Part shown: piece by piece, positions 2,859-45,440 of the stretch
How the letters are laid out: each line of letters opens with the position of its first letter
Numbering within the stretch: the stretch's first letter is position 1
DNA from: an uncultured bacterium
GTDB taxonomy: Bacteria > Verrucomicrobiota > Kiritimatiellia > RFP12 > UBA1067
Assembly: GCA_902779565.1 (NCBI GenBank)
Contig: CACZCD010000001.1
Span: 3,929-67,928 of the forward strand
Direction: 5' to 3'
Length of the DNA: 64,000 nt
Notes under the pieces: generated by a model
What the model was told of the DNA's origin: nothing
Seen by the model: the letters and a program-made list of their open reading frames with translations, nothing else
The model's database searches: none
Made by a program: the position numbers and the translations under genes

Positions 2859-4589
2859 TCATTTCAACCGGCCGATGAACGAAATCCGGCCGGCGCCCGT
2901 TGGCTTCTCGTAGGCGAGCGGATAGTTGGCGAGCGCCGCCAGCGGCGAGGCGGCCGAGGTGAGGGAGGGCTGACCCGTTGCATCCTTCTGGAAAGCCTTC
3001 GCATATTCCGCCAGCACCAGATAGTCCGTCGCCATGCCGTTCTCAATCTTCTTCGTGCTGCGGAACATCGCGAACCCATCGCCGCCATCCACAAGTGTAA
3101 AGCCATTCCCGACAACACGATAGACGCCGTGCGGATCAAGCGGAACGAACTTCCCCTCCTTGCGGTCGTAAACCTGCACGTTCTTGACGCGATAGACGCC
3201 GTTCGACGGTCCAGCCACCCATGCACCCGTCGCATCCACCTGTATGGCGGACTTCACCGTCACGTCCACCGCATACTTGAGACCGGCGACCTGAAGAAAT
3301 CCGCCGAACTCCGCCTCGCCCCCAACCTGCGCACCGAACTCAAGCGCGTCGAGAATCTGCCGCCCGTTCGCCTCCACCACGCCGATGTCCCCGCCGAACG
3401 GCTGCACTGTGCGGAGCGCCTTGAGCGTCACGTCGCCCGCTGGGATGTCCGCGCGCACGTTGCCGCCGTTCATGAGCGCACAGTCGCACGCGAAACCATA
3501 CCGCTCGTTCGCGCACCACCACGCGGCATCCGCCGCGAAATCACCCGCCGAGCAATCTTCCTTGCGCGCCAGACGGTCCGTCGTGCCCGGCACATAGGCG
3601 CAGAGCGCGGTGGGGGCGACCGCCACGCGCTTCCCCAGCTGACGCGCCACCTTGTCGGCCAGCTCCTGTTCGAGACGGGCCACCGCCGGCTTCTTCTCGC
3701 CGCGCGGATACACCGTACCGGCGGCGACGCACCGTCCATCCTCAAACGTCAACGAGCCCAAGATGCCGAGGTAGCTGCCACTCTGCGTGAGCACCACCTC
3801 TTGCCCCACCGCGTTACGCACGCGCATGCCGGTATACTCGGAATGCGAATGGCCATCGATGAACGCAACCACGTTCGTGGTGTGCGCAATCACGTCCAAT
3901 GACCGATAACCCGCACAGTCGGGCGACACGCCCATGTGACCGAGCAGGATCGTGTAGTCCGCGTGCGCGGCAGCTTCGTCCACGGCCTGCTGCACGGCGG
4001 CATAGAGCGCGTCGCCACGCTCTCCCGCAATGAAATCGTACGCGCGCCAACTCCCCGAGGGATCGAGGAAGGTTGACGGTTTCGCCGAGACGAGCGTGGT
4101 GGGCGTGGTGACGCCGACGAACGCCACGCGCACCGTCCCCGCCGTCACCACCACATACGACGGCAGCACGCGCGTCCCCGGATCGTCAGGTGCCTTTCGG
4201 TGGATGAAGTTGCAGCAGGTGTAGCGGAACGTCGCTCGACGGACATTGTCAAACATCGTCTGCATGCCATAGTCGAACTCGTGGTTGCCGAGCGTCGCCA
4301 CGTCGTAGCCGGCGGCGTTCATGATGCCGATCACGCTGCGGCCCGAATCGTATCCGCCGAGGGCGGTGCCCTGCACATGGTCGCCCGCATCCACCAGGAT
4401 CACATGTTCACCAGCCGCCTCAAGGCGATCCTTTTCCGCCGCAATCGCCGAGAACGCGACAAGCCCGTCGTCAATGTGGGAATGTGTGTCGTTCGTGTGC
4501 AGCACCGTCACACGCGCGGCTACAGCCGTGCACGACACAAGCATCGCCGCCACGACGATCATTCCATTCATTTTTCTTTCTTTCATCAT
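2859..4589 (-). CDS. Secreted 5'-nucleotidase / UDP-sugar hydrolase family metallophosphoesterase
   Basis: Motifs LHTNDTHSH, GDHVQG and GNHEFD (calcineurin-like dimetal site) plus a C-terminal 5'-nucleotidase substrate domain. I chose the start at MMKERKMNG... (signal peptide), preceded by AAGGAG. The ORF-track start at 4745 would read through the repeat element. Confidence 0.8.
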   Translation of the reverse strand: MMKERKMNGMIVVAAMLVSCTAVAARVTVLHTNDTHSHIDDGLVAFSAIAAEKDRLEAAGEHVILVDAGDHVQGTALGGYDSGRSVIGIMNAAGYDVATLGNHEFDYGMQTMFDNVRRATFRYTCCNFIHRKAPDDPGTRVLPSYVVVTAGTVRVAFVGVTTPTTLVSAKPSTFLDPSGSWRAYDFIAGERGDALYAAVQQAVDEAAAHADYTILLGHMGVSPDCAGYRSLDVIAHTTNVVAFIDGHSHSEYTGMRVRNAVGQEVVLTQSGSYLGILGSLTFEDGRCVAAGTVYPRGEKKPAVARLEQELADKVARQLGKRVAVAPTALCAYVPGTTDRLARKEDCSAGDFAADAAWWCANERYGFACDCALMNGGNVRADIPAGDVTLKALRTVQPFGGDIGVVEANGRQILDALEFGAQVGGEAEFGGFLQVAGLKYAVDVTVKSAIQVDATGAWVAGPSNGVYRVKNVQVYDRKEGKFVPLDPHGVYRVVGNGFTLVDGGDGFAMFRSTKKIENGMATDYLVLAEYAKAFQKDATGQPSLTSAASPLAALANYPLAYEKPTGAGRISFIGRLK

Positions 4590-4624
4590 AGTCTCCTTGA
4601 CGGTCAGTTGGTAGTTGATAGTTG

Positions 4625-4782
4625 GTGGTTGATTTGTCTCACGCAGAGGCGCAGAGGACGCAGAGAGAAATTTCGGAGTTGTGACTCCGCTCAAAAAATA
4701 ACATGGATTCCACCTTTCCACTTTTCCACCTTTCCACCATTCCACCTTTCCACTTTTCCACCTTTCAACCTTTCAACTTTTG
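4625..4782. repeat. Tandem-repeat hairpin element copy 1: CA-rich arm (4625-4655) and purine arm (4708-4782) around a spacer carrying GCAGAGG x3 and a small hairpin
   Basis: Plus-strand arms: gttggtagttgatagttggtggttg ... ccacctttccacttttccacctttccaccattccacctttccacttttccacctttcaacctttcaac. The arms are imperfectly complementary (GTTGAWAG units pair with CTTTCMAC units). Confidence 0.8.
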
Positions 4783-6061: not shown

Positions 6062-7150
6062 TCAGATCTTTCCCAGACCGGCGGCGATGCGCTCCGAGAG
6101 ATCCTTGTCACGAAGCGCGGTGAGAACCGGATCAAGTTCTCCCTCGATGATGCGGTCGAGCGAATAGAGAGTGAGATCCACGCGATGATCGGTCAACCGG
6201 TTCTGCGGGAAGTTATAGGTACGGATGCGCTCGGAGCGGTCGCCCGAACCGCGCAGCGTCAGACGCGACGCGCCCAGCTTCGCCTCTTCCTCGCGCCGCT
6301 TGAAGTCGAGGATGCGCGCCTTGAGGGTGGCCAGACACTTCTCGCGGTTTCGGATCTGCGAGCGTTCATCCTGACACTGCGCCACGAGTCCCGTGGGAAG
6401 ATGCGTCATGCGGACGGCGGACTCCGTCTTGTTTACGTGCTGACCGCCCGCGCCGCCCGCACAGAAGAGGTCGATGCGCAGATCCTTCTCGGGAATCTCC
6501 AGCTCATCCTCCTCGTCCGCCTCCGGGAACACCACCACCGTCGCCGCGCTCGTGTGGATGCGTCCCTGCGCCTCCGTCTCAGGCACGCGCTGGACGCGGT
6601 GTCCGCCGCTCTCGAAACGGAAGAGCCCGTAGGCCCCCTCACCCTCAACGGTGAAGATGACCTCCTTGTAGCCATCAAGAGAAGTCTGGTTTTCGGACAT
6701 CACGCGGATGCGCCAGCCCCTCGCCTCGCAGTAGCGCGAATACATGCGGAACAGGTCGCCCGCGAACAGCGCGGCCTCCTCGCCGCCGGTGCCGGCGCGG
6801 ATCTCGAAGCAGGCGTTGCGCGCCTCGAGCGGATCGGGCGGCAGAAGTCCCGCCAGCACCTCACGCTCGGCATCCGGGATGCCCGACGAAAGCAACTCGA
6901 CCTCCTTCGTCGCCTCGGCCGCCAATTCGGGATCCAAAGAGGCGTCGGACAGCATCGCCTTGGCGCCGTCGATGTCGTCCAACAGCTTGAAGTAGCGCTT
7001 CGCCGCCGCTTCGAGCTTCTTGAGGGCCGTGTGTTCGCGCACCGTCTCGCGGTAGCGCTTCACGTCCGCAATAACGGAAGAATCGCCCATCGCGGCTTCC
7101 ACCGCAGAGAGGCGATCCAACACTTTTCCGATCTGGGCTTTCTCGATCAA
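6062..7150 (-). CDS. prfA: Peptide chain release factor 1
   Basis: GGQ motif (GGAGGQHVNKTESAVR), PxT-type tripeptide region (RVQRVPETEAQGRIHTS), about 360 aa. Confidence 0.9.
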   Translation of the reverse strand: MIEKAQIGKVLDRLSAVEAAMGDSSVIADVKRYRETVREHTALKKLEAAAKRYFKLLDDIDGAKAMLSDASLDPELAAEATKEVELLSSGIPDAEREVLAGLLPPDPLEARNACFEIRAGTGGEEAALFAGDLFRMYSRYCEARGWRIRVMSENQTSLDGYKEVIFTVEGEGAYGLFRFESGGHRVQRVPETEAQGRIHTSAATVVVFPEADEEDELEIPEKDLRIDLFCAGGAGGQHVNKTESAVRMTHLPTGLVAQCQDERSQIRNREKCLATLKARILDFKRREEEAKLGASRLTLRGSGDRSERIRTYNFPQNRLTDHRVDLTLYSLDRIIEGELDPVLTALRDKDLSERIAAGLGKI

Positions 7151-7359
7151 GCCTTTTTCTGGAATTTCGCGTAGCGCTTCTTGAACGAGTCAACGCGGCC
7201 TTCCGTGTCAACCATCGTCTTCTGCCCCGTGAAGTAGGGGTGGCACGCGGAGCAGGTGTTCACCTGCATCTCCTTCTTGGTGGAACGCGTCTTGATGACA
7301 TTGCCGCACGCGCACGTAATCGTCGCGTCTTCGTAGGTAGGATGGATTCCTTCTTTCAT
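7147..7359 (-). CDS. rpmE: 50S ribosomal protein L31
   Basis: MKEGIHPTYEDATITCACGNVIKTRS...CSACHPYFTGQ, with a zinc-ribbon CxxC...CxxC, 70 aa. Start chosen at MKEG (7359). Confidence 0.85.
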   Translation of the reverse strand: MKEGIHPTYEDATITCACGNVIKTRSTKKEMQVNTCSACHPYFTGQKTMVDTEGRVDSFKKRYAKFQKKA

Positions 7360-7436: not shown

Positions 7437-7660
7437 GGCGCTTGTGCTTGTGTTTGTTGCCAGTCCGTGGCCGCGTCCGTTGTAGCCCGTTGCCTGTCCG
7501 TTAGGCGTCCGTATTAGCCCGTGTGAAGTCCGTAATCTGCCTGAAGCCTGTCCATGATATGTCCGTGGGTAGTCCGTGGTGTGTCCGTCTATGGGAGGGC
7601 GAGTGTCCTCGTGAAACGCCTCAAGTCCGTAATGCGTCCTTCTCGTATCCGTGTGAAGAA
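7437..7660 (+). repeat. Array R1: about 17 copies of GTCCGT (variants GCCCGT, GTCCTC, ATCCGT) phased at 10-12 bp (mean ~11 bp). It is an inverted copy of block B of R2.
   Basis: ccagtccgtgg ccgcgtccgtt gtagcccgttg cctgtccgtta ggcgtccgtat ... The first ~60 bp (ggcgcttgtgcttgtgtttgttgccagtccgtggccgcgtccgtt) is the near-exact reverse complement of 23225-23285. Confidence 0.85.
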
Positions 7661-17820: not shown

Positions 17821-20229
17821 TCACCATCCCTTCATCACGTTTTCTGCACGGCGGATGTAGGCATCCTGTTCGGCCTTGCACATATCATTCCACCGCACGT
17901 TCCATCCGCAAATACGAACCTGTAGATTCTCGTATTTTTCGGGGTGCGCCTGGGCATCACGGAGCATCTCTGCACTGAACACGGTGAACTGGATCACGCC
18001 GCCACCGTTTCGGTGGAACATCTGAACGAGCGCACGCATGGCCGCCAGCCCCTTTTCACCCTGAACGACTGACGGATGAAGTAATACGTCAAGCGGATAG
18101 TCGCTTGGTAGCTTCTCCGCCGAAGAAGAAGCCAGGGTCGCAACGAGCGCCGTGGCACCCTCTGTATCGGCTCCCATCGTAGGAGAAAGGTTCTTCGAGA
18201 GTTCATCGCCCTTTTTGCGTCCGTCAGGTGACGCGGGCGTCTTCTTCCCGAGCTCAATGAAGCGCCGCGAGGAATGCCCGCTCGCCAGAAAGATCCCGCC
18301 ACGAGAATTGGGGATGCCATTCAGGTTGGAAGCGAATACATCGATTATCTCTGCGCCCAATGCGTTGGACTCCGGGTCGTTGTTGCCCCACTTCCGCTTT
18401 GAGCGTAGCATCCTCAGGCGCAGCGCCTCATGTCCTTCCCAATCTGATGCCATGATTTCGCCAAGTACGGCCAGCGACTTTTCACGCTTTTCATAGACAA
18501 TCTCCTTCACGGCCAGCAACGCATCCACCGAACTGCCAAGGCCTAACGCGCGCAGCGTGGTATCATTGCCGCGCGGGCACCCCGTTGCAAATCCATCCTG
18601 ACGGGTCTTCAGGGCGTAATCGGTCGCCAACGTCATGCAGATGGCGGGGTTGACCTCAGATAGGGCCTTTTCAATCTCGTACACGATCTTGCGGCTCCTT
18701 GTCGTGTTTTGGGCGACCCGTTTCATGTACTCCGACCGAAACACCTCGAATGTACCCCAATCGGCTGAAGGCGCGCCCTTCCGCGCCTCGTCCAGCATTT
18801 GCACCACAGGGAAGAGCAAGTTCAGGTTCACGGTGTCTGTCGTGTTCAGGCTGTCCGCCAAGCCAAATTCATAGCACCCGCGCACGGCCATGGTACGGCA
18901 GTCTTCGTCGCTTGCGTTTTTCCACCGCTTGAGTACCTTTGAAGCCGACTCCTCGCCAAGGAACGCCACGGAACGCCGCCGCCGCGCCATGTCGAGCAGT
19001 TTCGCCCACGCCCAATCCGGCGTGTTTCCGCCCACCTTCACGATGAACTTGGGTGAGGTGAGGTTGAGCTCATCGACGACATCAAGAATGATGCGCGAGA
19101 CCTCCCCGAATTCGCTGGAACCATCCTGTTTCGTGCCGCCCAGGCCCGCGGGCTGTGCATAGTAGTTCGCGGCGGAACCCCACTGCCAGAGGAAGTGCTT
19201 GATCTGCTCGCGGAATTCCGCCTCGGTCGTGCGCCCCACCGCAATGTCGGAAACATAGTAGGGCGCAAGGAACACATCCAGCTCCGTGAGTGAACGGCAC
19301 TGGATGCCATCGAGGTGTTCCGACCAGAAGAAATAAAGCCACACAAACATCAACATGTCGTAGGCCGTCTGCGGCGGGCCGTTCCGCAGACGCTCCAGAC
19401 AAGCAATTTCCTTTTTAAGACGATCCTTACCATTTGCAATTTTGATTCTTGAACAATTGAGGCAATTGTCATTTGTGAACAATTGCAGTTGTTTCCTCCC
19501 CTGTTCGACAAAACGATCTATTCCGACGAGCATTGCATCCATCGCGATGCGGCATGACTCGCAGAACGGATCGTCTTTCACAGCATACTTCTCCAGACGC
19601 GCCTTCATACCCGGGAATCCGAGCGCGAGGATTACGCGCCAGTCGGGAACGGAATGGTCGAAATCCCGCCACATGAGCCAACGTCCTTCGGCATTGCCGT
19701 CATGCCACTCTTTCCAGGCCCAACTCGGAAGCGTCCTGTTCACTTCGCCATGCCGATGCTTGCCAGCAGAACGGATGGGGCGATTCCAGCGATCCCACAC
19801 GGCTATTGCCGGGAACCAGTCGAAGGGCGACACATCTATAGATTGCCGCTCGATCTGGGCGGCAAAGCATTTCGCCTTCGTGACGCGCCAAGACTCATTT
19901 GCCGACTTGCCCTTGGCGACGATCACTGCCAATAGTTCCTTAAGGGCATCCGTGCCCAATCCCGTCGTCCTGTCAGTAACATCCTGACGGAATTTTCGGC
20001 GCAGATACGTGTCCATATCCGTGATGTTCGCGACATATGGATCCCACCAAGTGATGTCTTCGACACATCTACGCTTTGGCACGACTACTTCATCCCCAAC
20101 CGTGGATGGGGCGGCAACGCCCATCGACAGGACCGCCGCACAGACTGCCGATAGCAGATGCCGTATAAGACACTTGTCTTTCATTGCTCCTCCCATCACT
20201 TCTTCACCACAGGATTGGAACCAGCCCAC
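17821..20229 (-). CDS. Glycyl radical enzyme (PFL-like, dehydratase/lyase GCxE subclass), substrate unknown
   Basis: The C-terminal glycyl-radical domain ...MLRDAQAHPEKYENLQVRICGWNVRWNDMCKAEQDAYIRRAEN aligns with the GRE consensus ...LLDAQKHPEKY..L.VRVSGYSA.F..L....QDDII.R. An internal MAVRGCYEFG fits the GC[VLM]E thiyl-radical loop, and 802 aa is typical. The N-terminal ~70 aa (hydrophobic, signal-like) are probably not part of the mature enzyme; an alternative start is MDTYLRRKF. Confidence 0.75.
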   Translation of the reverse strand: MGWFQSCGEEVMGGAMKDKCLIRHLLSAVCAAVLSMGVAAPSTVGDEVVVPKRRCVEDITWWDPYVANITDMDTYLRRKFRQDVTDRTTGLGTDALKELLAVIVAKGKSANESWRVTKAKCFAAQIERQSIDVSPFDWFPAIAVWDRWNRPIRSAGKHRHGEVNRTLPSWAWKEWHDGNAEGRWLMWRDFDHSVPDWRVILALGFPGMKARLEKYAVKDDPFCESCRIAMDAMLVGIDRFVEQGRKQLQLFTNDNCLNCSRIKIANGKDRLKKEIACLERLRNGPPQTAYDMLMFVWLYFFWSEHLDGIQCRSLTELDVFLAPYYVSDIAVGRTTEAEFREQIKHFLWQWGSAANYYAQPAGLGGTKQDGSSEFGEVSRIILDVVDELNLTSPKFIVKVGGNTPDWAWAKLLDMARRRRSVAFLGEESASKVLKRWKNASDEDCRTMAVRGCYEFGLADSLNTTDTVNLNLLFPVVQMLDEARKGAPSADWGTFEVFRSEYMKRVAQNTTRSRKIVYEIEKALSEVNPAICMTLATDYALKTRQDGFATGCPRGNDTTLRALGLGSSVDALLAVKEIVYEKREKSLAVLGEIMASDWEGHEALRLRMLRSKRKWGNNDPESNALGAEIIDVFASNLNGIPNSRGGIFLASGHSSRRFIELGKKTPASPDGRKKGDELSKNLSPTMGADTEGATALVATLASSSAEKLPSDYPLDVLLHPSVVQGEKGLAAMRALVQMFHRNGGGVIQFTVFSAEMLRDAQAHPEKYENLQVRICGWNVRWNDMCKAEQDAYIRRAENVMKGW

Positions 20230-21792: not shown

Positions 21793-22584
21793 ATGACACT
21801 ACGCGAAAGGAAGAAACTGCAACGCGACTTCTTTGAAGCCGCCGGCCCGAACACGGCCGCGTTCCGTGCACTGATTGATACGATTCCCGATGCGTGCTTC
21901 TACATGAAGGACTTGAACTGCCGCATCATGGCGCTCAACAAACGCAACTGCGAAGTGTGCAACATCAAAAACGAGCTGGATGTGGTGGGGATGCGTTCGG
22001 ACGAAGTTTTCACCCCTGCCGACGCCGAAAGCTTCATGGAACTCGACCTCGAAGTGCAAAGAACCAGAAAGCCAGCACTGAATCGCGTCGAAACGCATCC
22101 TGCCGACAAGTCACCAGGATTCACAATCGCCAGCGTCTATCCGGTCAAGAACAGATTTGGCGACATAATCGGCACCATGCGCCTGTACAGGGTATTCACG
22201 TCACACGACAATATGCCCGAATGGCATGGGCGGATGAAAGCCGTGGTAGCCTACATACAGGAACACTATGCGGAAGAAATCTCCCTTGATGAGCTGGCCA
22301 AGCTGACGGGCAGCTCGGTAAGCCAGTTCAAGCGCATCTTCACGAAGACGCTTGAGATGTCGCCCGGAAGATATATCGTCAACACCCGGATCAACGCCGC
22401 CCGCAAGCTACTGGAGACCACAGACAAGCTCGTCTCTGACATCGCGCAGGAAGTCGGCTTCTATGACCAAAGTCACATGACGCGGGCGTTCAAGACGATT
22501 CGCAGCACCACGCCCGGCGAATACCGCCGCAAGCACCGCTCCATTACGGCCAACAACTCATCCGCACCCAAACGCAAATCCTAA
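21793..22584 (+). CDS. AraC family transcriptional regulator with N-terminal PAS-like sensor domain
   Basis: C-terminal ...YIQEHYAEEISLDELAKLTGSSVSQFKRIFTKTLEMSPGRYIVNTRINAARKLLETTDKLVSDIAQEVGFYDQSHMTRAFK is a canonical AraC dual HTH. Confidence 0.8.
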   Translation: MTLRERKKLQRDFFEAAGPNTAAFRALIDTIPDACFYMKDLNCRIMALNKRNCEVCNIKNELDVVGMRSDEVFTPADAESFMELDLEVQRTRKPALNRVETHPADKSPGFTIASVYPVKNRFGDIIGTMRLYRVFTSHDNMPEWHGRMKAVVAYIQEHYAEEISLDELAKLTGSSVSQFKRIFTKTLEMSPGRYIVNTRINAARKLLETTDKLVSDIAQEVGFYDQSHMTRAFKTIRSTTPGEYRRKHRSITANNSSAPKRKS

Positions 22585-22611: not shown

Positions 22612-22735
22612 CCAACGGACAGAACACGGACAAGTTACGGACTTGCGACGGACAGCCGCTCCGCACACATAAACGGACTCGGGACGGACTGAAAACGGAC
22701 AGGCGCTCGCAGGGCGACCGCCCTGCCTCGGACAA
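22612..22735 (+). repeat. Array R2 block A: about 9 copies of ACGGAC phased at ~11 bp
   Basis: caacggacaga acacggacaag ttacggacttg cgacggacagc ... aaacggactcg ggacggactga aaacggacagg. Confidence 0.8.
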
Positions 22736-22936
22736 TCAGCCAGCGAAACCACACAATCCCCAACCACCCTCAACCGTCGCCCCGCACCCCGCGACCACTG
22801 CGTGGCTCGGCCTTCGACCTCGAATGATATCCCTGCGCAATCCCCCGCAGTTCCTCCAATCCACCACTCCTCCAATCACCCAATCCTCACACCCCACCCA
22901 CTCCACACCCGCAGAGCCAGCCTTGAACACCCTAAA

Positions 22937-23004: not shown

Positions 23005-23290
23005 GAAGACATCCAACGGGCTTCTGACGGACACACCACGGACAGGTTACGGTCTTGCCAAGGACATCTGACGGACGGCACACGGACACACTACGGACAA
23101 GTTACGGACTGGCCACGGACGCGCAACAGACTTCATACGGGCTTAGAACGGACGAGCCACGGACAAAATACGGGCGGAACACGGACTAAAACGGACTTCT
23201 GATGGACAGCATACGGACGGATCACGGGCTACAAACGGACGCGGCCACGGACTGGCAACAAACACAAGCACAAGCGCCTTTCCCGCGGCG
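23005..23290 (+). repeat. Array R2 block B: about 22 copies of ACGGAC (variants ACGGGC, ATGGAC) phased at ~11 bp. The terminal ~60 bp is the inverted duplicate of the R1 start.
   Basis: ctgacggacac accacggacag gttacggtctt ... ctacggacaag ttacggactgg ccacggacgcg ... aaacggacgcggccacggactggcaacaaacacaagcacaagcgcc. Confidence 0.85.
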
Positions 23291-23308
23291 GGGATGTGTG
23301 CGCGCATT

Positions 23309-23758
23309 TTACGGCAGGGCGGCACCCACGAGACGCGAGGCCAGCTTACCGTCGGCCTGACCCTTGACGCGGGCCATGACCTCTTTCATCACGCGACCCA
23401 TATCCTTCTTGGACGTTGCGCCCAGTTCGGCCACCGTCGCCTTGACCACGGCGGCGACCTCGTCCTCGGAAAGCTGCGCAGGAAGGTACTGGCGCAGGAA
23501 CTCCAGCTCCGCCTTCTCCCCCTCCGCCAGGTCGGCACGTCCGGCCGCCGCGAACTGCGCAATCGACTCCTCGCGCTGCTTCACGCCCTTTGCCACCACG
23601 GAGAGGACGGCATCGTCCGTCATCTCCTTGCCGGCGTTCACCGTGAGATCCTTCGCCTTGGCCACCACACCGCGGATCGCGTTGACGGCCTTCATGTCAT
23701 GGGCCTTCATCGCGGTCTTCATGTCCGCCATCAGTTTATCGTAAAGTGCACTTGCCAT
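23309..23758 (-). CDS. GatB/YqeY domain-containing protein
   Basis: 149 aa, MASALYDKLMADMKTAMKAHDMKAVNAIRGVVAKAKDL...ELEFLRQYLPAQLSEDE, a typical YqeY family sequence. Confidence 0.7.
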   Translation of the reverse strand: MASALYDKLMADMKTAMKAHDMKAVNAIRGVVAKAKDLTVNAGKEMTDDAVLSVVAKGVKQREESIAQFAAAGRADLAEGEKAELEFLRQYLPAQLSEDEVAAVVKATVAELGATSKKDMGRVMKEVMARVKGQADGKLASRLVGAALP

Positions 23759-23786
23759 CTTTTGTCCTCCTTTTGAACGGCCGCGC

Positions 23787-25346: not shown

Positions 25347-25360
25347 GTTAATCCTTTTTT

Positions 25361-25430
25361 AGTTGATAGTTGATAATTGATGATTGGTGGTCTAGTCTCA
25401 ACCTTTCCACTTTTCCACCTTCCCACTTTT
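25361..25430. repeat. Tandem-repeat hairpin element copy 2, in the 5'UTR of the esterase gene
   Basis: Plus strand: agttgatagttgataattgatgattggtgg ... ctcaacctttccacttttccaccttcccactttt. The arrangement is the same as copy 1, with the CA-rich arm ending 8 nt before the AAAAAAGGA RBS on the mRNA. Confidence 0.8.
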
Positions 25431-25434
25431 AACT

Positions 25435-26571
25435 TCAGATAACACCTTTGATGTACCGTTCCTTCACCGTGCGCCAAAGCACCAGGCAGAACGCCGAAAG
25501 CGGGATGGCGAGCAGGAGCCCCAGGAGCGACTTGAACACCGCGCTCCAGAACAGGAACGAGAAGATCACGCCCGCAAAGCCAAGTCCTGTGCGCTGGCCC
25601 TGGATGAGCGGCGTGATGGCATAGCCGTCCGCGATCTGGCCGGCCGCCCATACGCTCGACACACCGATGAGCCGCAACAGACTGCCACCATCGCCGAAGA
25701 AGGCGAGCAGGAGCGCAAGCGGAAGGCAGATTACAGTACCGAGGAGCGGCACAAGGTTGATCGCTCCCAGCGCAAAGCCGATCACGAAGCCGTAGGGCAG
25801 CCCCACGAGAACGAATCCGAGGCCGTAGAGCACGCCTTCCACAAGGCAGATGATCACCTGCCGCTGGAAAAAGGAGACGATGATGTCCGTGAACGTATCG
25901 ATCTGATCCGCCACAAACCCGCGCGTCTCCTCCTTCAGGAACGGCATCTGCCGCACACAGTCCTCGCCGCGCAGCGCCGGCTTCATCAGGAAGTACACGA
26001 AGAAGATCATCGTCACAACCCACCCGACAAGACCCATGAGGTACTTCACCACACTGAAGCTCACCTTCACCGCCTTTCCGCCGTACTGCGCGCCGAGCTG
26101 GGAGAGGATATCGTGCGAGAACTGCGCGGGATCCGTGAAGAACAGAAGCGCGGAGTCCGGCACGCCGAGCTTCACAAGCCCCGCATGAAGCCCCGGATGC
26201 TGGGCCTGGAACCATTCGCTCGCGCGCGTCACAATCGTTGGCGCAGCGGTGATGAAGGCCGAGAGCTGCTCGATCAGCATCGCGCCCGTGAGCCACAGCA
26301 CGAGACCCGCCGGCACAAGGACCGTGAGGGACATCGCCACCAGCGCCAGGGTCGGGTTGTGCAACCGCTTCAGGAACCATCCGTAGTACGGCTTGAAGAA
26401 CATCGAAAGGAGCAATCCCATGATGACCGGTGTCAGCGCGGGCGCCGTCAGGTTCAGGAGCTTCAACACAAACCAGCCAATACCGAGCGCAAAGGCGACC
26501 ACCAGCGCCACCGCCAGAGACGTGACGCCCGCCGCCGCCCATTTCTTCTGCCGATTGCTCAAGTCAATCAC
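25435..26571 (-). CDS. AI-2E family transporter (PerM/UPF0118)
   Basis: 378 aa, about 8 TM segments, with the typical AI-2E topology and conserved segments. Confidence 0.7.
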   Translation of the reverse strand: MIDLSNRQKKWAAAGVTSLAVALVVAFALGIGWFVLKLLNLTAPALTPVIMGLLLSMFFKPYYGWFLKRLHNPTLALVAMSLTVLVPAGLVLWLTGAMLIEQLSAFITAAPTIVTRASEWFQAQHPGLHAGLVKLGVPDSALLFFTDPAQFSHDILSQLGAQYGGKAVKVSFSVVKYLMGLVGWVVTMIFFVYFLMKPALRGEDCVRQMPFLKEETRGFVADQIDTFTDIIVSFFQRQVIICLVEGVLYGLGFVLVGLPYGFVIGFALGAINLVPLLGTVICLPLALLLAFFGDGGSLLRLIGVSSVWAAGQIADGYAITPLIQGQRTGLGFAGVIFSFLFWSAVFKSLLGLLLAIPLSAFCLVLWRTVKERYIKGVI

Positions 26572-33792: not shown

Positions 33793-36700
33793 TTAGGGCT
33801 TTACGCGCACGGTTTCAGCGGTTGAGTGTGCCGTGAACTCGGGCGCGTACATGCATTGGATCGTCGCAAGCCCGCCGATAAACACGCCGCGCTGCTGCAC
33901 GCGATACGACGTCTCAAGAACGAACACGCCCTTGTTGAGACAGTCGATGTAGTAGTGCGTGGCCGTATCCTTCGTGGACTGATAATAACCCACGCCATCG
34001 CGCCAGCGGTACGACGACAGCACATCCTCCGGCTCCGCGCACGCAGGCCGCTCGTCAGAGAGATGCACGAACTCGTACGTGCGGTCGCTCGTGATCTCAA
34101 GCCGCGCCACGATCTCGTCGCCCGGCTCAAGCACGCCATCGATCGACGTGAGCCGTGTCCCATCCGCGCCCTTCACCTTCTTGTAGTACTTCTTCTCCAC
34201 CCGCAACTCCTTCGGCTCGTGCGCGCGTACCTTAAGGACATCCTCAAAGTACGTCCAGTGGACGCCGCCCCACGCAACGCCCTTCTCGCCCGCACCCGTA
34301 AACGTGATCTCGCCCATCTCGGGCCTGATCTGCGCCGCGGCGTAGCGGTGCGAATACATCCCCGTGCCCGCCTCGGCGTTCGCCACCGGCACCTTCTCGC
34401 CCGCCAGCGTGACCTCGGCCAGCTTGTCGCCCGCCAGCAGATCCGTCCCGCCGCCCAGAAGGAGCGCATAGATCGCGTCCACCGTCGCGGCGGTCGTCGT
34501 CCAATCCTGCGTCTGCTTCTGCTTCAGGAGCCACACGTTGCAGGCATCTGCGCTCTCCTCGTCGCGCGTCACCTCGCGGAACGCCTCAATGATCAGCGCC
34601 TGCGTCGAGACGGGCGCGGCGAACACGCTGCACGAGAAGAAGGACGACCTCTTCCAGTATAGGCCGAGTTCCTCTGAAAGGACGCCCCGCTCCTTGATCG
34701 ACGCCATGATCTTCCGCGCGAACTTTTCCTCGCCCATGCGCTTCAAGGCGATGGCCGCCAGCGCCTGCGAGCTGAGGCCGAAGTCCGTCCACTCCTCCTT
34801 GAGATGCTTGACGAAGAGCTTTGCCGGCTGCGCATCCTTCGCGGCGGCGACGCCCTTGAACGTATGGAGGTAGAGCCAGCGAATGTCGAAGCCATCCACA
34901 TGGAACTTGATGCCCAGTCTCTTCGCCTCCTTGAGCCGCTCCTTCACATCCTCAGAAACGAACGCGTCAAGTGCTTCCACCGCCTCCGCAAAGAAGTCGG
35001 GATACGTCCTCTGCGCCAGGAAGTTGAGCCGCGCGAACCCCGTCAGGATATAGAGCGAGATGCCGGGCGCGGACGGCCCGCCCGGGAACCACGGCCAGAG
35101 TCCGCCGCCACACCGCGCGAGTCGCAACTTCTCAAGGCACTTTTCCTGCTCACCCGCCAGACGGTCGGCGGCGAAGAGTTCACCAAGCCGCGCGCGGGCT
35201 GCGCTTTCGTGCGCCGCCTCACGGACCCACGGCGTCGCTTCAAGCGCAATCGCCTTGAGGTGTTCATCCGTCTCAAGCGGGCTCTTCAGCGTTTCGCCGC
35301 CCGCCGCCTTCCACGCGTCGAACGTGGCGCGGATGCGCGGATCGGCGTTTGCGATGTACTGTCCCAGCGCGTTCGCATAGTAGCGGCTGAACGTCTGCTC
35401 GCAGCATTCGTGCGGGAACTCCATCAGGTACGGAAGCGACAACACCGCGTACCACGCCGGACGCGACACGGCGCGCACCGTGAGATCCTGATGGCGGACC
35501 GTCTCAGACCCCTTGCTCGCCAGCAGGTTCTCGAACCGAAACGATTTCGTCGCCGCGCCACGCACGTTGAGCTGCACGGCCTCGCGCACCATCACGCGGC
35601 GCGCCAGCACCGGCAGCACGCCCTCTTCGCCGTCCGCGAACGCCGCGCCCTTCGCGCGCGCGACATATTTGAGATAGCCGCACCCATCCGGGATCCGCAA
35701 CGGGAACTCGAACGTCTTCGATTCGTGCGGAACCAGGTTGAAAGGTTGAAAGGTTGAAGCGTTGAAAGGTTGAAGCGTTGACGGGTTGGCATTTTCAGCA
35801 GAACTTTTCAACTCTTCAACCTTCAACTCTACAACTCCCTGCTGCGGCGCGTCCTCGGTGTTCGTCACCTTGACGGCAAAGAAGAAGTTGTCACCTTCGC
35901 GCACGAAACGCGGTGCGTTCGGTTCGCACATGAGCGGCTTCGTCGTCACGATCTCGTTGTTGCGGAAGATGTCGCCGCGAAGCGCGTTGTCATGCGCGAC
36001 CATCAGGAACTTCCAGCCCGTGAGCGCGTCCGGCACCGTGAACGAGAACGACACCTTCCCGTCCGCATCCGTCTCCAGGTTCGGGAAGAAGAACGCCGTC
36101 TCCTTCAGGTTCGTGCGCGGCGGCGCATCCGGTTCCTTCTCGGACTTCGCGGATGGTGCAGCACCACACACCGCCACCGTTTCTTCTTCCAAGACGCACC
36201 TTTCATTCATCACGCCCATCCCGGCCGCGGCGGACTTGCAGACCATGCCGCCCCGTCTTCGCAGTCTGCCATACTCGTACAGCGACCGCCACGAAGGCCA
36301 TCGGAAGTTGGAGAACCACGTGGACTTGCTTGGGAACCGACCGCCGAGATCCATCAGCTCCGTGGTCGTATTCTGGATTGCCGGACTTCCGAGCCAGCGC
36401 GTCCAGGGCGTAAAGTGACTTGAAAAACCGAGCGACACATCATGCCATTTGTACGCATCGAGCGAACGGTCGTACATGAAAGCGAGCACTTCCGCAGGGC
36501 CCGACACCTTGAACGTCCATATTTCCTTGTTGCCGGGATTGAGCTTGCTCGTCAGGTGCTCCGCCGTGATATCCAGATACTTGTTGTCCCACGGCACATT
36601 CACGCAGGTGCTGTCGCAATAGATGCGGTTCTCGCGCACGAAGGTGGTCTCAATCCTCACTTCGCCGCGATGCTCCTCCTGGATCGGCAGCTCGAAAAAC

Positions 36701-43523: not shown

Positions 43524-45440
43524 TCACAACGCGTCTGTCATGAATGTATGCGCCACCGTCCAAGGCGCGCTCTTGATCCGTTTCATGCGCATCAAAAGCG
43601 AAAGGCGGTGGCGTTCAAGCTCCGCATCGCCCCGTGCCGGCAGTTCGCCGAGACGGCGTCGGATCGCATCGCCCCATAGCCGCCGCAGAAAATCCTCAAG
43701 AATGCGCGCTGGGTCCAACTCGGAAAGCGATGCGCGCTCCCGCGACAGGAACACGCCCTCCAAAAGCGCACCATCCGCCGCGGAAAGCGTCCCGCGGAGT
43801 TCCGCCATCGCCTGCTCGTTCCCGCGCGTCTCCTGCACATAGGCGTGAACGAACCCGCACGTCAACGCATGCTGGAAAATCGTGTCGGGCGCATAGGATT
43901 CCAGCATCTCCGTCAGCTGCCCATCCGGTCCGTTTCCGAACAGAAACTCCATGAGTGCCATCTCTGTCCGAGGCGGCGGATTGTTCTCCGGAGCCGCAGC
44001 GTCTTCCGAGGGTTGAGAGTTGGGAGTTGAGGGTTGAGGGCTTGCCGCGCCGAAGCCTTCGGCGGAGGCGGGTTGCGTACTTCCTCTTCCCTCTTCCCTC
44101 TTCCCTCTTCCCTCTTCCCTCTTCCCTTTCTCTAGATCCTCCTCAAGGGCGGCGACCGGTATCTTCAGAAGTGTGGAAGCCTCCTGCAGCAAACTGGCGC
44201 GCATGACCGCGCTCGAACTGCACCTGACCAACGCCAAGACAGCGCGCGCCGCGCGGGAGATCGCATCGTAGGAGTCAGGTGTCTGCTCCATCGCGCGGGC
44301 GATGCGTACTTGAAAGGCGACCAGCGACTCAGCCGAATCAAGGCAGGCCTGAAACGCCGCCGGACCTTTCGTGCGAAGCAGAGAATCTGGGTCTTCGCCC
44401 GGCGGAAGACTTGCCACGCGCACCAACAATCCGGCGGCCAGCATCTCGCCGCCCGTGCGAATCGCCGCCTTCTGTCCAGCGGCATCGGCGTCAAAGACCA
44501 GCACGGCGGCATCGGCGACCTTCTTCAGGATCTGGACATGCTCCTTCGTGAAGGCCGTCCCCTGCGACGCGATCGCACGGGAGAATCCCGCCGCATGGCA
44601 GCGGATCACATCGATCTGCCCTTCGCAGACGATGGCCTCGCGAACGGGCTTGGCGTTGGCGATCTTCCCCGCCGCAAGATCGAACGCATAGAGAACATCC
44701 GACTTCCGGAAGATGAGCGTCTCGGGCGAATTGACGTACTTGCCGCCGCGCATCTTCGTCTTATCCGTCTCAAGCGTCCGTCCCGAGAACGCGATCACGC
44801 GTCCAGACCGGTCACGGATCGAGAACATGACGCGTCCGGCGAACGGCGAGTACCAGCGTCCGCCCGGATACTTCGGCGGACGCAGCACGCCGGCCGCCTC
44901 AAGCTCTTCGGTGGTGAAATGATGCTTCTCCGCCCATTTGAGCATCGCCTCGGCCTGCTGCGGCGCGTAGCCGATCTGGAACTGCTCCGCGATCTCGTCC
45001 GGGATGTCGCGCGACGCGAGATAGTTGCGCGCACGCGCCGCCTCAGCGGCCGTCTTGAGGCAACGCCGGTAGAACGCCGCCAACTCGGCGTGGAGCACAA
45101 GTTGGCGCTTGCGCGCGGCCGCTTGCGGATCGCTATTCGTCTCCTCGATGGTGATGTTCGCCGCCGCCGCCAGCTTCTTCGCCGCCTCCACGAAGCCCAG
45201 CCCCTCGTACTTCATCACGAACTTGATCACGTCGCCGGACTCGCCGCAACCGAAGCAGTGGTAGAATCCCTTCGCCGGCTGGATGTTGAAACTCGGCGTC
45301 TTTTCATGATGAAACGGGCAGCAGGCCTTGTACGACCCACCTGCCCGTTTCACTTGGATCCCGTAGCTGGCGATCAAATCTGCAAGGTCCGTACGGGCCT
45401 TGATCTCTTCGATCGTCTGCTCCGAAATGCCGAAGGCCAT
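43524..45440 (-). CDS. dnaG: DNA primase
   Basis: Zinc-ribbon CPFHHEKTPSFNIQPAKGFYHCFGCGESGD, TOPRIM region (EGQIDVIRCHAAG...DADAAGQKA). 638 aa including a low-complexity insertion derived from a repeat element. Confidence 0.9.
   Translation of the reverse strand: MAFGISEQTIEEIKARTDLADLIASYGIQVKRAGGSYKACCPFHHEKTPSFNIQPAKGFYHCFGCGESGDVIKFVMKYEGLGFVEAAKKLAAAANITIEETNSDPQAAARKRQLVLHAELAAFYRRCLKTAAEAARARNYLASRDIPDEIAEQFQIGYAPQQAEAMLKWAEKHHFTTEELEAAGVLRPPKYPGGRWYSPFAGRVMFSIRDRSGRVIAFSGRTLETDKTKMRGGKYVNSPETLIFRKSDVLYAFDLAAGKIANAKPVREAIVCEGQIDVIRCHAAGFSRAIASQGTAFTKEHVQILKKVADAAVLVFDADAAGQKAAIRTGGEMLAAGLLVRVASLPPGEDPDSLLRTKGPAAFQACLDSAESLVAFQVRIARAMEQTPDSYDAISRAARAVLALVRCSSSAVMRASLLQEASTLLKIPVAALEEDLEKGKREEGRGKREEGRGSTQPASAEGFGAASPQPSTPNSQPSEDAAAPENNPPPRTEMALMEFLFGNGPDGQLTEMLESYAPDTIFQHALTCGFVHAYVQETRGNEQAMAELRGTLSAADGALLEGVFLSRERASLSELDPARILEDFLRRLWGDAIRRRLGELPARGDAELERHRLSLLMRMKRIKSAPWTVAHTFMTDAL
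44010..44125. repeat. Tandem-repeat hairpin element copy 4, in-frame inside dnaG
   Basis: Plus strand: gggttgagagttgggagttgagggttgaggg - spacer with gccgaagccttcggc hairpin - (cctcttc)x5. It encodes ...KGKREEGRGKREEGRGSTQPASAEGFGAASPQPSTPNSQPS... Confidence 0.8.

What the first reader, a model, noticed from the sequence alone, without database searches (positions are those of the whole stretch)
4625..4782. Novel family of tandem-heptamer/octamer hairpin elements (purine arm + CA-rich arm), four copies in 64 kb
The copies at 4625-4782, 25361-25430, 35736-35838 and 44010-44125 share one architecture and one orientation. On the mRNA (minus) strand each starts with a purine arm of 7-8 nt tandem units: GGTGGAAA, GTTGAAGR or GGGAAGA. 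A spacer of 15-55 nt follows, sometimes with a small GC hairpin. Then comes a CA-rich arm of units CAACTAT, CWTCAACC or CCCTCAA. The two arms are imperfect reverse complements. For example GUUGAAAG pairs with CUAUCAAC at 7 of 8 positions, the mismatch being A:A. Each element can therefore fold into a long bulged hairpin. Copy 1 also supplies the last codons and the stop of the U32 peptidase gene (aaagttgaaaggttga). This combination does not match a repeat family I can name: it is not REP/BIME-like, not a Correia element and not a CRISPR array. It looks like a lineage-specific miniature element.
Basis: seen in the sequence. Interest (0 to 1): 0.85.

Follow-up and report, generated by a model that had tools for sequence, protein, structure and literature searches.

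The report
Convergent pairs of hepta/octamer microsatellites
Four sites in this Kiritimatiellae genome fragment carry a G-rich run of 7-8-base tandem repeats facing a C/A-rich run; they are real, fast-evolving microsatellite pairs of a kind already described in Xanthomonas and cyanobacteria, not a new mobile hairpin element.

Summary
The four elements exist where stated. Each is a C-free tandem array of 7-8-nt units, a 4-69-nt spacer, then a G-free array, all in one orientation. Such base-free runs are about tenfold commoner than in shuffles. Arm-to-arm complementarity beyond arm composition is clear only for copy 3 and weak for copy 4; copies 1 and 2 pair no better than shuffled arms. Orthologous loci show no insertion signature. 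Relatives carry arrays at the same sites, with different unit numbers, different units or only one arm. That is in-place slippage turnover, not transposition. Copies 3 and 4 lie in frame in an A2M-like protein loop and the DnaG linker. Two relatives of the A2M gene carry 3 or 5 octamers there and are frameshifted. Similar arrays occur in many phyla. Convergent heptamer pairs placed just after stop codons and just before start codons were described for Xanthomonas GGGAATC (Rehm 2015) and belong to the "long SSR" class. New here: the lineage, a GTTGA core on the G strand of 7 of 8 arms, arms of unequal period, an A excess on the sense strand, and a strict G-to-C order in every pair examined. That order remains unexplained. 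Interest is moderate to low.

The parts
4707..4781 (-). Copy 1, G-strand arm: (GTTGAAAG)2(GTGGAAAR/GTGGAATG)7, C-free for 75 nt. It encodes the last codons and the TGA stop (4765-4767) of the U32 peptidase.
4638..4706 (-). Copy 1 spacer (69 nt). It holds a weak terminator-like hairpin CGGAGTcacaACTCCG + AAATTTCTCT (4674-4689) and a third small array (CCTCTGCG)3 at 4641-4665.
4606..4637 (-). Copy 1, C/A arm: AATCAAC CACCAAC TATCAAC TACCAAC T, G-free. It ends 7 nt before the AAGGAG (4593-4598) and ATG (4587-4589) of the 5'-nucleotidase gene.
25396..25437 (-). Copy 2, G-strand arm: begins in the TGA stop (25435-25437) of the AI-2E transporter gene, then AGTTAAAA GTGGGAAG GTGGAAAA GTGGAAAG GTTGAGA.
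25355..25391 (-). Copy 2, C/A arm: CCACCAA TCATCAA TTATCAA CTATCAA CTAAAAAA. It runs into the AAGGA Shine-Dalgarno-like site and the ATG (25344-25346) of the SASA-family esterase gene. The spacer to the left arm is only 4 nt.
35802..35835 (-). Copy 3, G-strand arm inside the A2M-like CDS: GTTGTAGA GTTGAAG GTTGAAGA GTTGAAAA GTT, read as VVELKVEELKS. The 8/7/8/8 unit lengths keep TGA out of frame.
35736..35785 (-). Copy 3, C-strand arm inside the A2M-like CDS: (YKTCAACS)6, read as STLQPFNASTFQPFN. It is the true reverse complement of the left arm. The last unit is the native QPF motif that relatives also have.
44078..44134 (-). Copy 4, purine arm inside dnaG: GAGAAAG(GGGAAGA)6GGAAGT, read as EKGKREEGRGKREEGRGS. 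It is the only arm without GTTGA and the only canonical G3-tract quadruplex motif.
44041..44077 (-). Copy 4 spacer with the small GC hairpin GCCGAAGgCTTCGGC (44049-44063). It is more conserved among relatives than the arms (the SAEGFGAAS segment).
44008..44040 (-). Copy 4, C/A arm inside dnaG: CCCTCAA CCCTCAA CTCCCAA CTCTCAA CCCTC, read as PQPSTPNSQPS. It has no stop codon in any sense frame.

Best explanation
These are convergent pairs of long simple-sequence repeats, that is, microsatellites with 7-8-nt units. A G-rich array sits on one strand and faces a G-rich array on the other, so either strand reads 5'-G-rich ... C-rich-3'. They arise and turn over in place by slipped-strand mispairing, with occasional local duplication or templated change. 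They persist only where the genome tolerates them: short spacers between co-directional genes, and disordered or loop segments of proteins. Shown here: they are hypervariable at fixed sites between close relatives, and they are not copies of one mobile sequence. Inferred: selection filters which strand faces which gene end. The G-rich strand contains TGA and is Shine-Dalgarno-like; it is tolerated after a stop codon. The G-free strand has no stop in any frame and little structure; it is tolerated directly upstream of a ribosome-binding site. Inside genes both arms must stay stop-free and hydrophilic, which fits the A excess and the K/R/E/G then P/Q/S/T/N peptides. Any hairpin is a by-product rather than the selected feature, except perhaps at copy 3. 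Because units are not multiples of three, a single-unit slip inside a gene shifts the frame, as seen in A2M relatives.
For: Arrays and architecture. In-place turnover, by site: (1) The dnaG linker carries heptamer arrays in all relatives of at least 76% identity, with other units and numbers: GGGAAGA x6 + CYCTCAA x5 here; CCCCTCA x5 in L120; GGGGAAY x4 + AACTCGA-type x15 in L121; CTCTCAA-type in L123. DnaG proteins of 72% identity or less have ordinary linkers. (2) At the copy 2 site, an independent assembly (L132) is identical except for one SNP. L130 and L131 keep both arms but have 7-9 right-arm units instead of 4. L134 has the same unit on the other strand as a single arm. L136 has a different left unit. 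(3) The copy 3 site is a variable loop only 4 aa longer than in distant homologs, and its arms extend native GAGTTGA and QPF-coding sequence. Relatives hold different pairs there. (4) For copy 1, the 96%-identical relative L125 has 2 units and no C/A arm, and relatives with other neighbours have none. New arrays appear inside genes between close strains: (CTCAACT)5 sits in the U32 gene of L125 and is absent here. Frame effect: L128 has 3 and L176 has 5 CACTCCTC units; both are out of frame, and 4 would be in frame. Hairpin not general. Orientation: every adjacent pair in about 339 kb of Kiritimatiellae-like DNA reads G then C, at least 10 non-orthologous pairs and none reversed. Across phyla, about 14 exact-partner pairs are convergent and 3 divergent. 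Placement: arrays abut stop codons on the sense G strand (copies 1 and 2; L134, L113, L082) and start codons on the sense C strand (copies 1 and 2; L010, L108, L113). C/A arms have no stops in the three sense frames in 3 of 4 cases (copy 2's has one), and all have stops on the antisense strand. Sense-strand A:T in the arms is 139:67 against about 1:1 in the window. Precedent: Xanthomonas GGGAATC arrays include 70-75 convergent pairs per genome, lie mostly between aligned ORFs, within 50 bp after stops on the coding strand or before starts on the non-coding strand, and vary in length between species at conserved loci (PMC4692102). Heptamers are the commonest long SSR, with slippage proposed as the cause (Mrazek 2007 as summarised in PMC4679880).
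Against: Slippage alone does not explain several things. It does not explain why unrelated sites share the GTTGA core. It does not explain why copies 1 and 2 share both arm units. It does not explain the strict G-then-C order. The copy 1 / L125 difference and the 48-nt U32 insertion in L125 include non-repeat sequence, so some events are insertions or deletions of segments rather than unit slips. The C/A array upstream of the SASA gene persists from 78% to 100% identity, even next to a different upstream gene (L136). That could mean it is selected. The selective filters I propose are inference only; no expression data were available. Only 64 kb of the source genome was seen, so genome-wide density is an extrapolation.
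Confidence: 0.72

Rival explanations
1. One reading: a lineage-specific miniature mobile element (MITE/RPE-like) whose inverted arms are built of tandem units. It inserts into intergenic DNA and, in frame, into genes.
For: Copies 1 and 2 share both arm units. GTGGAAAR arrays recur at several loci in related MAGs. There are indel differences that include non-repeat sequence: window versus L125 at copy 1, and a 48-nt insertion in the L125 U32 gene. In-frame insertion of palindromic elements is known for Rickettsia RPEs (from my own knowledge).
Against: No conserved element sequence exists: units, periods and spacers differ among the four copies. No terminal repeats beyond the arrays and no target duplications were seen. 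Arrays occupy the same sites in relatives with changed unit numbers. At copy 3 the locus is only 4 aa longer than in distant homologs and the arms grow out of native codons. In L113 the ATCAAC array sits next to the opposite strand of the GTGGAAAG array, so the arm pairing is not fixed.
Confidence: 0.05
2. A selected RNA element in the polycistronic mRNA. It could be a stem-loop (stabiliser, attenuator or terminator), or a repeat platform that binds a protein such as S1, CsrA, a cold-shock protein or Hfq. It would tune translation of the downstream gene (intergenic copies only).
For: The C/A arm ends 0-7 nt from the Shine-Dalgarno-like site in copies 1 and 2. A C/A heptamer array is kept in front of the SASA gene across 78-100% relatives, even with another upstream gene. 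The copy 1 left arm has nine GGA motifs. The spacer of copy 1 has a terminator-like hairpin. MacGregor proposed S1, Csp or CsrA binding for TAACTGA repeats just upstream of start codons (PMC4679880).
Against: Unit number is not conserved and the arms vary independently. Arm pairing is no better than shuffled arms for copies 1 and 2. The same architecture occurs inside coding sequence, where such a role is unlikely. No Rfam family matches. L134 has the array on the opposite strand at the same site.
Confidence: 0.15
3. G-quadruplex-forming repeats, as proposed for GGGAATC and GGGGAYT arrays. They would act through G4 or i-motif structures in DNA or RNA.
For: (GGGAAGA)6 in copy 4 is a canonical G3N4 motif. 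The left arms of copies 1 and 2 have GG tracts that could form two-tetrad structures. The geometry relative to ORFs is the same as in the G4-repeat paper.
Against: Seven of eight arms lack four G3 tracts, and copy 3 has no G tracts at all. The one canonical motif sits in the sense strand of an essential gene, where a stable RNA G4 would be harmful.
Confidence: 0.05
4. Contingency (phase-variation) switches: the non-triplet arrays inside genes are kept because slippage switches the protein on and off. This is proposed for the A2M-like gene.
For: Two independent assemblies of an approximately 80%-identical A2M gene differ by two 8-nt units (3 vs 5). Both are out of frame with otherwise intact halves, and 4 units would restore the frame. 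The window copy is in frame. A2M-like proteins face the environment or host.
Against: The array lies two-thirds into a 1968-aa gene, not near the 5' end. A third relative (L200) has two separate frame breaks, so the gene may simply be decaying. dnaG is essential and cannot be switched off. No within-sample read data were available.
Confidence: 0.12
5. Break-repair scars: each arm was added independently to one 3' end of a double-strand break by a repeat-adding polymerase activity, and the ends were then joined.
For: It would directly give the always-convergent order of the G strands. It would also explain arms with different periods and units in one pair (8 vs 7 nt), non-repeat filler between the arms, and a shared core (GTTGA) if the activity is templated.
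Against: No candidate enzyme was identified. Unit-number changes between relatives are explained well enough by slippage. The arms of copy 3 grow from native codons on both sides, which needs no break. The idea is untested.
Confidence: 0.05

Closest known systems
GGGAATC (Xanthomonas) and GGGGA(C/T)T (Nostoc) heptamer SSR arrays, Rehm et al. 2015, PLoS One (PMC4692102)
   Same: Tandem 7-nt G-rich units of 2-26 copies at many loci. Frequent pairs 'in convergent orientation'. Mostly between aligned ORFs. G strand on the coding strand within 50 bp after, or overlapping, the stop, and on the non-coding strand within 50 bp before the start. Repeat type kept but length variable at orthologous loci. 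No link to mobile elements.
   Different: Here the units are GTTGA-based, 7 or 8 nt, and mostly cannot form G3 quadruplexes. The two arms of a pair usually differ in unit and period and are not true complements. Half of the pairs lie in frame inside genes. The host is Kiritimatiellae.
Long simple sequence repeats (LSSR, 5-11-nt units) of prokaryotes, Mrazek et al. 2007 (as summarised in PMC4679880 and PMC4692102)
   Same: Over-long runs of 5-11-nt units, heptamers commonest, enriched in large high-GC genomes. Polymerase slippage is proposed as the mechanism.
   Different: That survey reported that repeats inside genes are mostly multiples of three. Here 7- and 8-nt units sit in frame in dnaG and an A2M-like gene.
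TAACTGA intergenic direct repeats of Beggiatoaceae, cyanobacteria and Bacteroidetes, MacGregor 2015 (PMC4679880); cyanobacterial STRR heptamers
   Same: One heptamer family at many loci. Arrays lie a few nt upstream of start codons or overlap the upstream stop. The forward strand carries stop codons. Phyletic distribution is patchy.
   Different: Those are almost all direct repeats (169 direct sets and one indirect) and are not paired. The unit is different.
Tandem repeats of Borg elements that create disordered protein segments, Schoelmerich et al. 2023 (PMC9879509)
   Same: Fast-evolving arrays in both intergenic DNA and ORFs. A-enriched on the coding strand. They yield hydrophilic, disordered peptide repeats. 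Compare the sense-strand A:T of 139:67 and the KREEGRG / PQPSTPN peptides here.
   Different: Borg units in ORFs are always divisible by three and are perfect, and units are longer (about 18-21 nt and more). No convergent pairing was noted in the passages read.
Rickettsia palindromic elements / MITEs (from my own knowledge)
   Same: Short palindromic DNA that can sit in frame inside protein genes.
   Different: RPEs are dispersed copies of one conserved sequence. Here only units are shared, and the sites are orthologous and hypervariable.

Membership tests
Long SSR / heptamer-type microsatellite arrays | Head-to-tail units of 5-11 nt, at least 3 copies, longer than chance | tested here: met
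   TRF: 8 arrays of period 7-8 with 3.1-8.4 copies. Base-free runs: 11 observed vs 1.1 in shuffles.
Long SSR / heptamer-type microsatellite arrays | Unit-number polymorphism at the same locus between close relatives | tested here: met
   dnaG linker. SASA 5' region: 4 vs 7-9 units. A2M relatives: 3 vs 5 units.
Long SSR / heptamer-type microsatellite arrays | One unit family present at many loci of a genome | tested here: inconclusive
   GTTGA core in 7 of 8 arms. GTGGAAAR arrays at 4 loci of one related MAG and in other Kiritimatiellae MAGs. Only 64 kb of the source genome was available.
Xanthomonas-type convergent heptamer pairs (Rehm 2015) | Two arrays close together, G strands convergent | tested here: met
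   4 of 4 in the window. All adjacent pairs in about 339 kb of related DNA.
Xanthomonas-type convergent heptamer pairs (Rehm 2015) | G strand on the coding strand within 50 bp after the stop, and on the non-coding strand within 50 bp before the start, between aligned ORFs | tested here: met
   Copies 1 and 2. L134, L113, L010, L108, L082. Not applicable to copies 3 and 4, which are inside CDS.
Xanthomonas-type convergent heptamer pairs (Rehm 2015) | Four or more G3 tracts able to form a G-quadruplex | tested here: not met
   Only the left arm of copy 4 matches G3N1-7 x4.
MITE / REP / Correia / RPE-type mobile miniature elements | Dispersed copies share one full-length consensus with terminal inverted repeats | tested here: not met
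   Units, periods and spacers differ among copies. Only copies 1 and 2 share units.
MITE / REP / Correia / RPE-type mobile miniature elements | Filled versus empty orthologous sites with precise boundaries or target duplication | tested here: not met
   Relatives have arrays at the same sites with other lengths. L125 differs by complex indels without duplicated targets.
MITE / REP / Correia / RPE-type mobile miniature elements | Cognate transposase or RAYT in the genome | not tested
   The window's ORFs were not annotated in full, so absence of such a gene was not checked, and the whole genome is not available.
Structured RNA family | Conserved secondary structure with compensatory changes | tested here: not met
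   No Rfam hit. Arm pairing is not above arm-shuffle controls except at copy 3. Arms vary independently in orthologs.
SSR contingency (phase-variation) locus | Non-triplet SSR in a gene with in-frame and out-of-frame alleles in one population | tested here: inconclusive
   A2M relatives with 3 and 5 octamers are both out of frame, and the window allele is in frame. These are different assemblies, there are no read-level data, and L200 looks degraded.
CRISPR array | Repeats of 23-50 nt separated by unique spacers of similar length | tested here: not met
   Units are 7-8 nt and contiguous.

The most novel reading that the evidence does not exclude
The arrays are products of a dedicated repeat-generating process rather than plain slippage. 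One form would be templated addition of GTTGA-type units to the two 3' ends of a break or stalled fork, followed by joining. This would explain the strict convergent order of G strands, arms of different period within one pair, non-repeat filler between arms, and a common core at unrelated sites. The same order is reported in Xanthomonas and recurs here across phyla, so it may be a general and still unexplained rule of bacterial heptamer repeats.
Probability: 0.07. Interest if true: 0.8.

Novelty: new member of a known kind. Interest (0 to 1): 0.33.

Why it matters
It settles what these conspicuous low-complexity blocks are, so annotators need not treat them as a new mobile element or RNA. It extends paired heptamer/octamer microsatellites to Kiritimatiellae, a gut and rumen lineage. 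It shows that they can live in frame inside essential genes, where they build disordered linkers, and that they can break genes when one unit slips. It also sharpens two open questions about bacterial long SSRs. Why do the G strands of paired arrays always converge? How does one unit core come to occupy many unrelated sites?

Tried and rejected
1. A general hairpin. Whole-element MFEs look stable (-12 to -53 kcal/mol), but shuffling each arm separately removes the signal for copies 1 and 2. A control that reversed one arm was uninformative for copy 3, because the reversed unit is a rotation of itself. 2. DnaA-box arrays. Low-GC hits of the GTGGAAAR pattern are oriC-like DnaA-box clusters (L014, L027, L099, L110). 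The high-GC arrays are longer, lie between or inside ordinary genes, and the other units do not resemble DnaA boxes, so I dropped this. 3. A fixed composite element (GTGGAAAR arm plus ATCAAC arm). Among Kiritimatiellae-like loci, only the window and its orthologs show this combination. L113 has ATCAAC next to the opposite strand. 4. Assembly artefact. Rejected because identical arrays occur in independent assemblies (L132; three DnaG clusters at 100% identity, one of them on 3 contigs). 5. A viral-contig scan for the unit gave 23 scattered hits and no lead. 6. A full-text search for the repeat sequences found no paper. 7. The Mrazek 2007 paper itself is not held, so it is cited through two papers that summarise it. 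8. Synteny downstream of dnaG is not conserved, so one fetch could not cover both copies 3 and 4 in relatives.
Full report
SOURCE AND SETTING. The window is 64 kb of a 72.9-kb rumen metagenome scaffold (ENA ERZ28614400, STEW19-1 scaffold_761). It has about 62% G+C, a negative GC skew on the + strand throughout, and nearly all long ORFs on the minus strand. Named DnaG and U32 homologs place it in Kiritimatiellae, some of which are labelled Lentisphaerae in public records.

THE OBSERVATION. Reading the four regions on the minus strand and running Tandem Repeats Finder confirms eight arrays of period 7 or 8, arranged as four pairs. A simple and stringent view is to look for runs that lack one base. 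In this G+C-rich DNA, the + strand shows a C-free run followed by a G-free run at each site. The coordinates are 4606-4637/4707-4781, 25355-25391/25396-25437, 35735-35759 (array to about 35785)/35802-35840, and 44008-44040/44078-44134. The window has 11 runs of at least 30 nt without G or without C. Shuffles that keep local composition give a mean of 1.1 and a maximum of 4. On the mRNA strand each element is a C-free purine-rich array, then a spacer of 69, 4, 16 or 37 nt, then a G-free C/A-rich array. Every strong period-7/8 array in the window (TRF score 35 or more) belongs to one of these pairs; the only others are three weak ones of 2-3 copies.

CONTEXT. Copy 1 lies between a U32 peptidase gene and a 5'-nucleotidase gene. 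Its first units encode QKLKG and the stop of the U32 gene, and its C/A arm ends 7 nt before AAGGAG-N3-ATG. Copy 2 starts in the stop codon of an AI-2E transporter gene and runs into the AAGGA-N5-ATG of a SASA-family esterase gene. Copies 3 and 4 are not in untranslated regions. They lie in frame inside a 1968-aa alpha-2-macroglobulin-like ORF and inside dnaG, in the linker after the Toprim domain.

THE HAIRPIN CLAIM. Whole-element folds are stable, but a G-rich arm and a C-rich arm will pair whatever their order of bases. I therefore shuffled each arm separately and refolded. The z-scores are -1.0 (copy 1), -0.03 (copy 2), -4.9 (copy 3) and -2.1 (copy 4). In a cross table, the left arms of copies 1 and 2 pair better with the right arm of copy 3 than with their own partner. 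Only copies 3 and 4 prefer their own partner. The same test on orthologous elements gives z between +0.1 and -1.9. A real inverted repeat is therefore present at copy 3, a weak one at copy 4, and none beyond composition at copies 1 and 2. Rfam has no match anywhere in the window.

ORTHOLOGOUS LOCI.

Copy 4. There are 120 DnaG homologs spanning 100% down to 55% identity. The segment between LEEDLEKG and SEDAAAPENNPPP is hypervariable. In all relatives of at least 76% identity it is made of low-complexity peptide repeats that differ from strain to strain. More distant proteins have ordinary linkers. The DNA explains this. The window has (GGGAAGA)6 ... (CYCTCAA)5. L120 (91%) has almost no left arm and (CCCCTCA)5. 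L121 (86%) has (GGGGAAY)4, a related spacer hairpin, and about 15 AACTCGA/AACCCGG units. L123 (77%) has CTCAACY-type units.

Copy 2. L132, from an independent assembly, is identical to the window except for one SNP. L130 and L131 (92%) keep both arms but have 7-9 right-arm units instead of 4, and 3-4 left-arm units. L134 (77%, same gene neighbours) has (YAGTTGR)4, which is the same unit on the opposite strand, as a single arm directly after the stop. L136 (78%, different upstream gene) has (GATGATA)6 facing (CAACTAK)2.

Copy 3. The site aligns with a variable loop of the domain. The window protein is only 4 residues longer there than distant homologs. The arms extend native sequence: GAGTTGA, and the QPF motif CAACCTTTCAAC that relatives share. 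Relatives carry other G-then-C pairs at the same place. L128 and L176 have GAGTTGR/GAGTGKGT units facing (CACTCCTC)3 or (CACTCCTC)5. L200 has a 25-nt duplication plus a GACAAAG/CTGTCGT pair.

Copy 1. L125 (U32 96% identical, same neighbours) has two G-strand units, no spacer and no C/A arm, and an unrelated insert of about 290 nt. Relatives with other downstream genes have no array.

Conversely, L125 carries (CTCAACT)5 within a 48-nt in-frame insertion in its U32 gene, which the window lacks. None of these comparisons shows a conserved element with defined ends or duplicated target bases. What they show is rapid gain, loss and resizing of arrays at fixed permissive sites.

CONSEQUENCES INSIDE GENES. 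Units of 7 or 8 nt rotate the reading frame. The C/A arms have no stop codon in any sense frame in 3 of 4 cases, while their antisense strands have several. The copy 4 purine arm lacks T almost entirely. The copy 3 left arm uses unit lengths 8/7/8/8, which keeps the TGA of GTTGA out of frame. The encoded peptides are KREEGRG-type followed by PQPSTPN-type, that is, hydrophilic linker material. In the A2M relatives, L128 (3 octamers) and L176 (5 octamers) both shift the frame exactly inside the array. Each is called as two overlapping ORFs, and 4 units would be in frame. This could be on/off switching or simple decay. L200 has a second frame break elsewhere, which favours decay in that lineage.

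WHAT TIES THE ARRAYS TOGETHER. GTTGA occurs on the G-rich strand of 7 of the 8 arms. That is 19 occurrences in 339 nt, about 29 times its frequency elsewhere in the window. The exception is the in-gene purine arm of copy 4. GTTGA-type units also recur in L123, L125, L128, L130, L131 and L134. Copy 3, the true palindrome, lacks this excess. In about 339 kb of Kiritimatiellae-like DNA fetched here, every adjacent pair of period-7/8 arrays reads G-rich then C-rich. That is at least ten non-orthologous pairs with none reversed.

DISTRIBUTION. Low-G+C hits are DnaA-box clusters. The rest are longer arrays in Vicinamibacterales, Cloacimonadota, Bacteroidales, Verrucomicrobiota, Kiritimatiellae, Planctomycetota, Nostoc and a Thermoplasmata archaeon. 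Many have a facing partner array. Where the partner is the exact complement, about 14 pairs are convergent and 3 divergent. The class is therefore not lineage-specific.

COMPARISON WITH WHAT IS KNOWN. Rehm et al. 2015 (PMC4692102) described GGGAATC arrays in Xanthomonas and GGGGA(C/T)T arrays in Nostoc, with 2-26 units at about 180 loci. In Xanthomonas there are 70-75 cases per genome of two arrays 'with convergent orientation'. The arrays lie preferentially between aligned ORFs. The G strand is on the coding strand within 50 bp after (or overlapping) the stop, and on the non-coding strand within 50 bp before the start. Length varies at loci conserved between species, and there is no link to mobile elements. 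That is the geometry of copies 1 and 2. Mrazek et al. 2007, as summarised, found heptamers to be the commonest long SSR and proposed polymerase slippage. MacGregor 2015 (PMC4679880) described TAACTGA repeats that abut start codons and overlap upstream stops. Borg tandem repeats are A-enriched on the coding strand and create disordered protein segments, but their in-gene units are multiples of three. The present arrays differ from the Xanthomonas class in four ways: a different core unit, mostly no G3 tracts, arms of unequal period and imperfect complementarity, and frequent in-frame location inside genes.

MECHANISM. Shown: these are hypervariable tandem arrays that change by whole units at fixed sites, and they are not dispersed copies of one sequence. 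Inferred: slipped-strand mispairing drives the changes, and selection decides where and in which orientation arrays survive. On the sense strand, a G-rich, TGA-bearing, Shine-Dalgarno-like array is harmless after a stop codon. A G-free, stop-free, weakly structured array is harmless or helpful just before a ribosome-binding site. The reverse order would put Shine-Dalgarno mimics in front of start codons and a C-rich Rho-loading stretch behind stop codons. Inside genes only stop-free, hydrophilic readings survive. This accounts for placement, A excess and orientation between genes. It does not account for the same G-then-C order inside genes, nor for the shared GTTGA core. Those two points are left open and motivate the low-probability novel reading: independent repeat addition at the two 3' ends of a break.

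VERDICT. The 'hairpin' is real only for copy 3. The 'mobile miniature element' and 'lineage-specific, unnamed family' readings are not supported. The elements are a new member of the known class of bacterial long hepta/octamer SSRs in convergent pairs.

Noticed in passing
window 7463-7630 (-), 22615-22700 (+), 23027-23252 (+): ACGGAC hexamers are phased every 11 nt (sometimes 22 or 33) in three arrays, each on the strand of the downstream ORF. The window has 80 ACGGAC against 44.7 +/- 6.7 in shuffles. Array 1 lies between a terminator-like GC hairpin and the L31 (rpmE-like) gene at 7147-7358. Arrays 1 and 3 end in the same approximately 45-nt sequence CACGGACTGGCAACAAACACAAGCACAAGCGCCTTTCCCGCG. 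This looks like a helically phased binding or UP-like array in front of promoters, and is a different class from the 7-8-mer pairs.
   Followed up: partly
window 22746-22910 (+): The roughly 700-nt gap between an AraC-family regulator gene (21793-22584) and ORF 23294-23776 (no Pfam hit) holds G-free C/A/T-rich runs of 30 and 60 nt, including (TCCTCCAATCMACCA)2. They have no facing G-rich array and are flanked by the ACGGAC arrays.
   Followed up: no
L125 2515-2846 (relative of the copy 1 site): In the 96%-identical relative, the U32/5'-nucleotidase spacer holds a different insert of about 290 nt. The insert has an inverted repeat (GGCCACAAAGAACAGGAGAAGCAGGAG ... CTCCTGTTTTCTCCTGTTCTTTGTGGCT) and 2-3 direct copies of a roughly 45-nt unit. 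It may be a genuine small mobile or duplicated element.
   Followed up: no
L125 1420-1453 (U32 gene of the relative); window equivalent about 5870: An in-frame 48-nt insertion containing (CTCAACT)5 adds VSRSALNSQLSTLNSQ to the U32 peptidase of the relative and is absent from the window gene. This is a presence/absence polymorphism of an in-gene C/A array between 96%-identical proteins.
   Followed up: partly
L128 4880-5000 and L176 1370-1500 (A2M relatives of the copy 3 site): The same gene in two independent assemblies carries 3 and 5 CACTCCTC octamers. Both alleles are out of frame and are called as two overlapping ORFs; 4 units would restore the frame.
   Followed up: partly
L018, L029, L044, L048 and other Cloacimonadota loci: In Cloacimonadota the (GGTGGAAA)n array is followed by a conserved GGTTCCCYGAAAYAAKAACCATCAGG-like segment at several loci of one genome. 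There it may be part of a dispersed repeat element rather than a bare SSR.
   Followed up: no
L014, L027, L099, L110 (low-GC genomes): The search pattern also picks up oriC-like clusters of DnaA boxes (TGTGGAAAA / TTTTCCACA), which is a source of false positives for any census of this unit.
   Followed up: partly
window 19436-19485 (-): A 26-nt unit is directly repeated about 1.9 times (GCAATTGTTCACAAATGACAATTGCCTCAATTGTTCAAGAATCAAAATTGC region) inside a lower-GC stretch. It was not examined.
   Followed up: no
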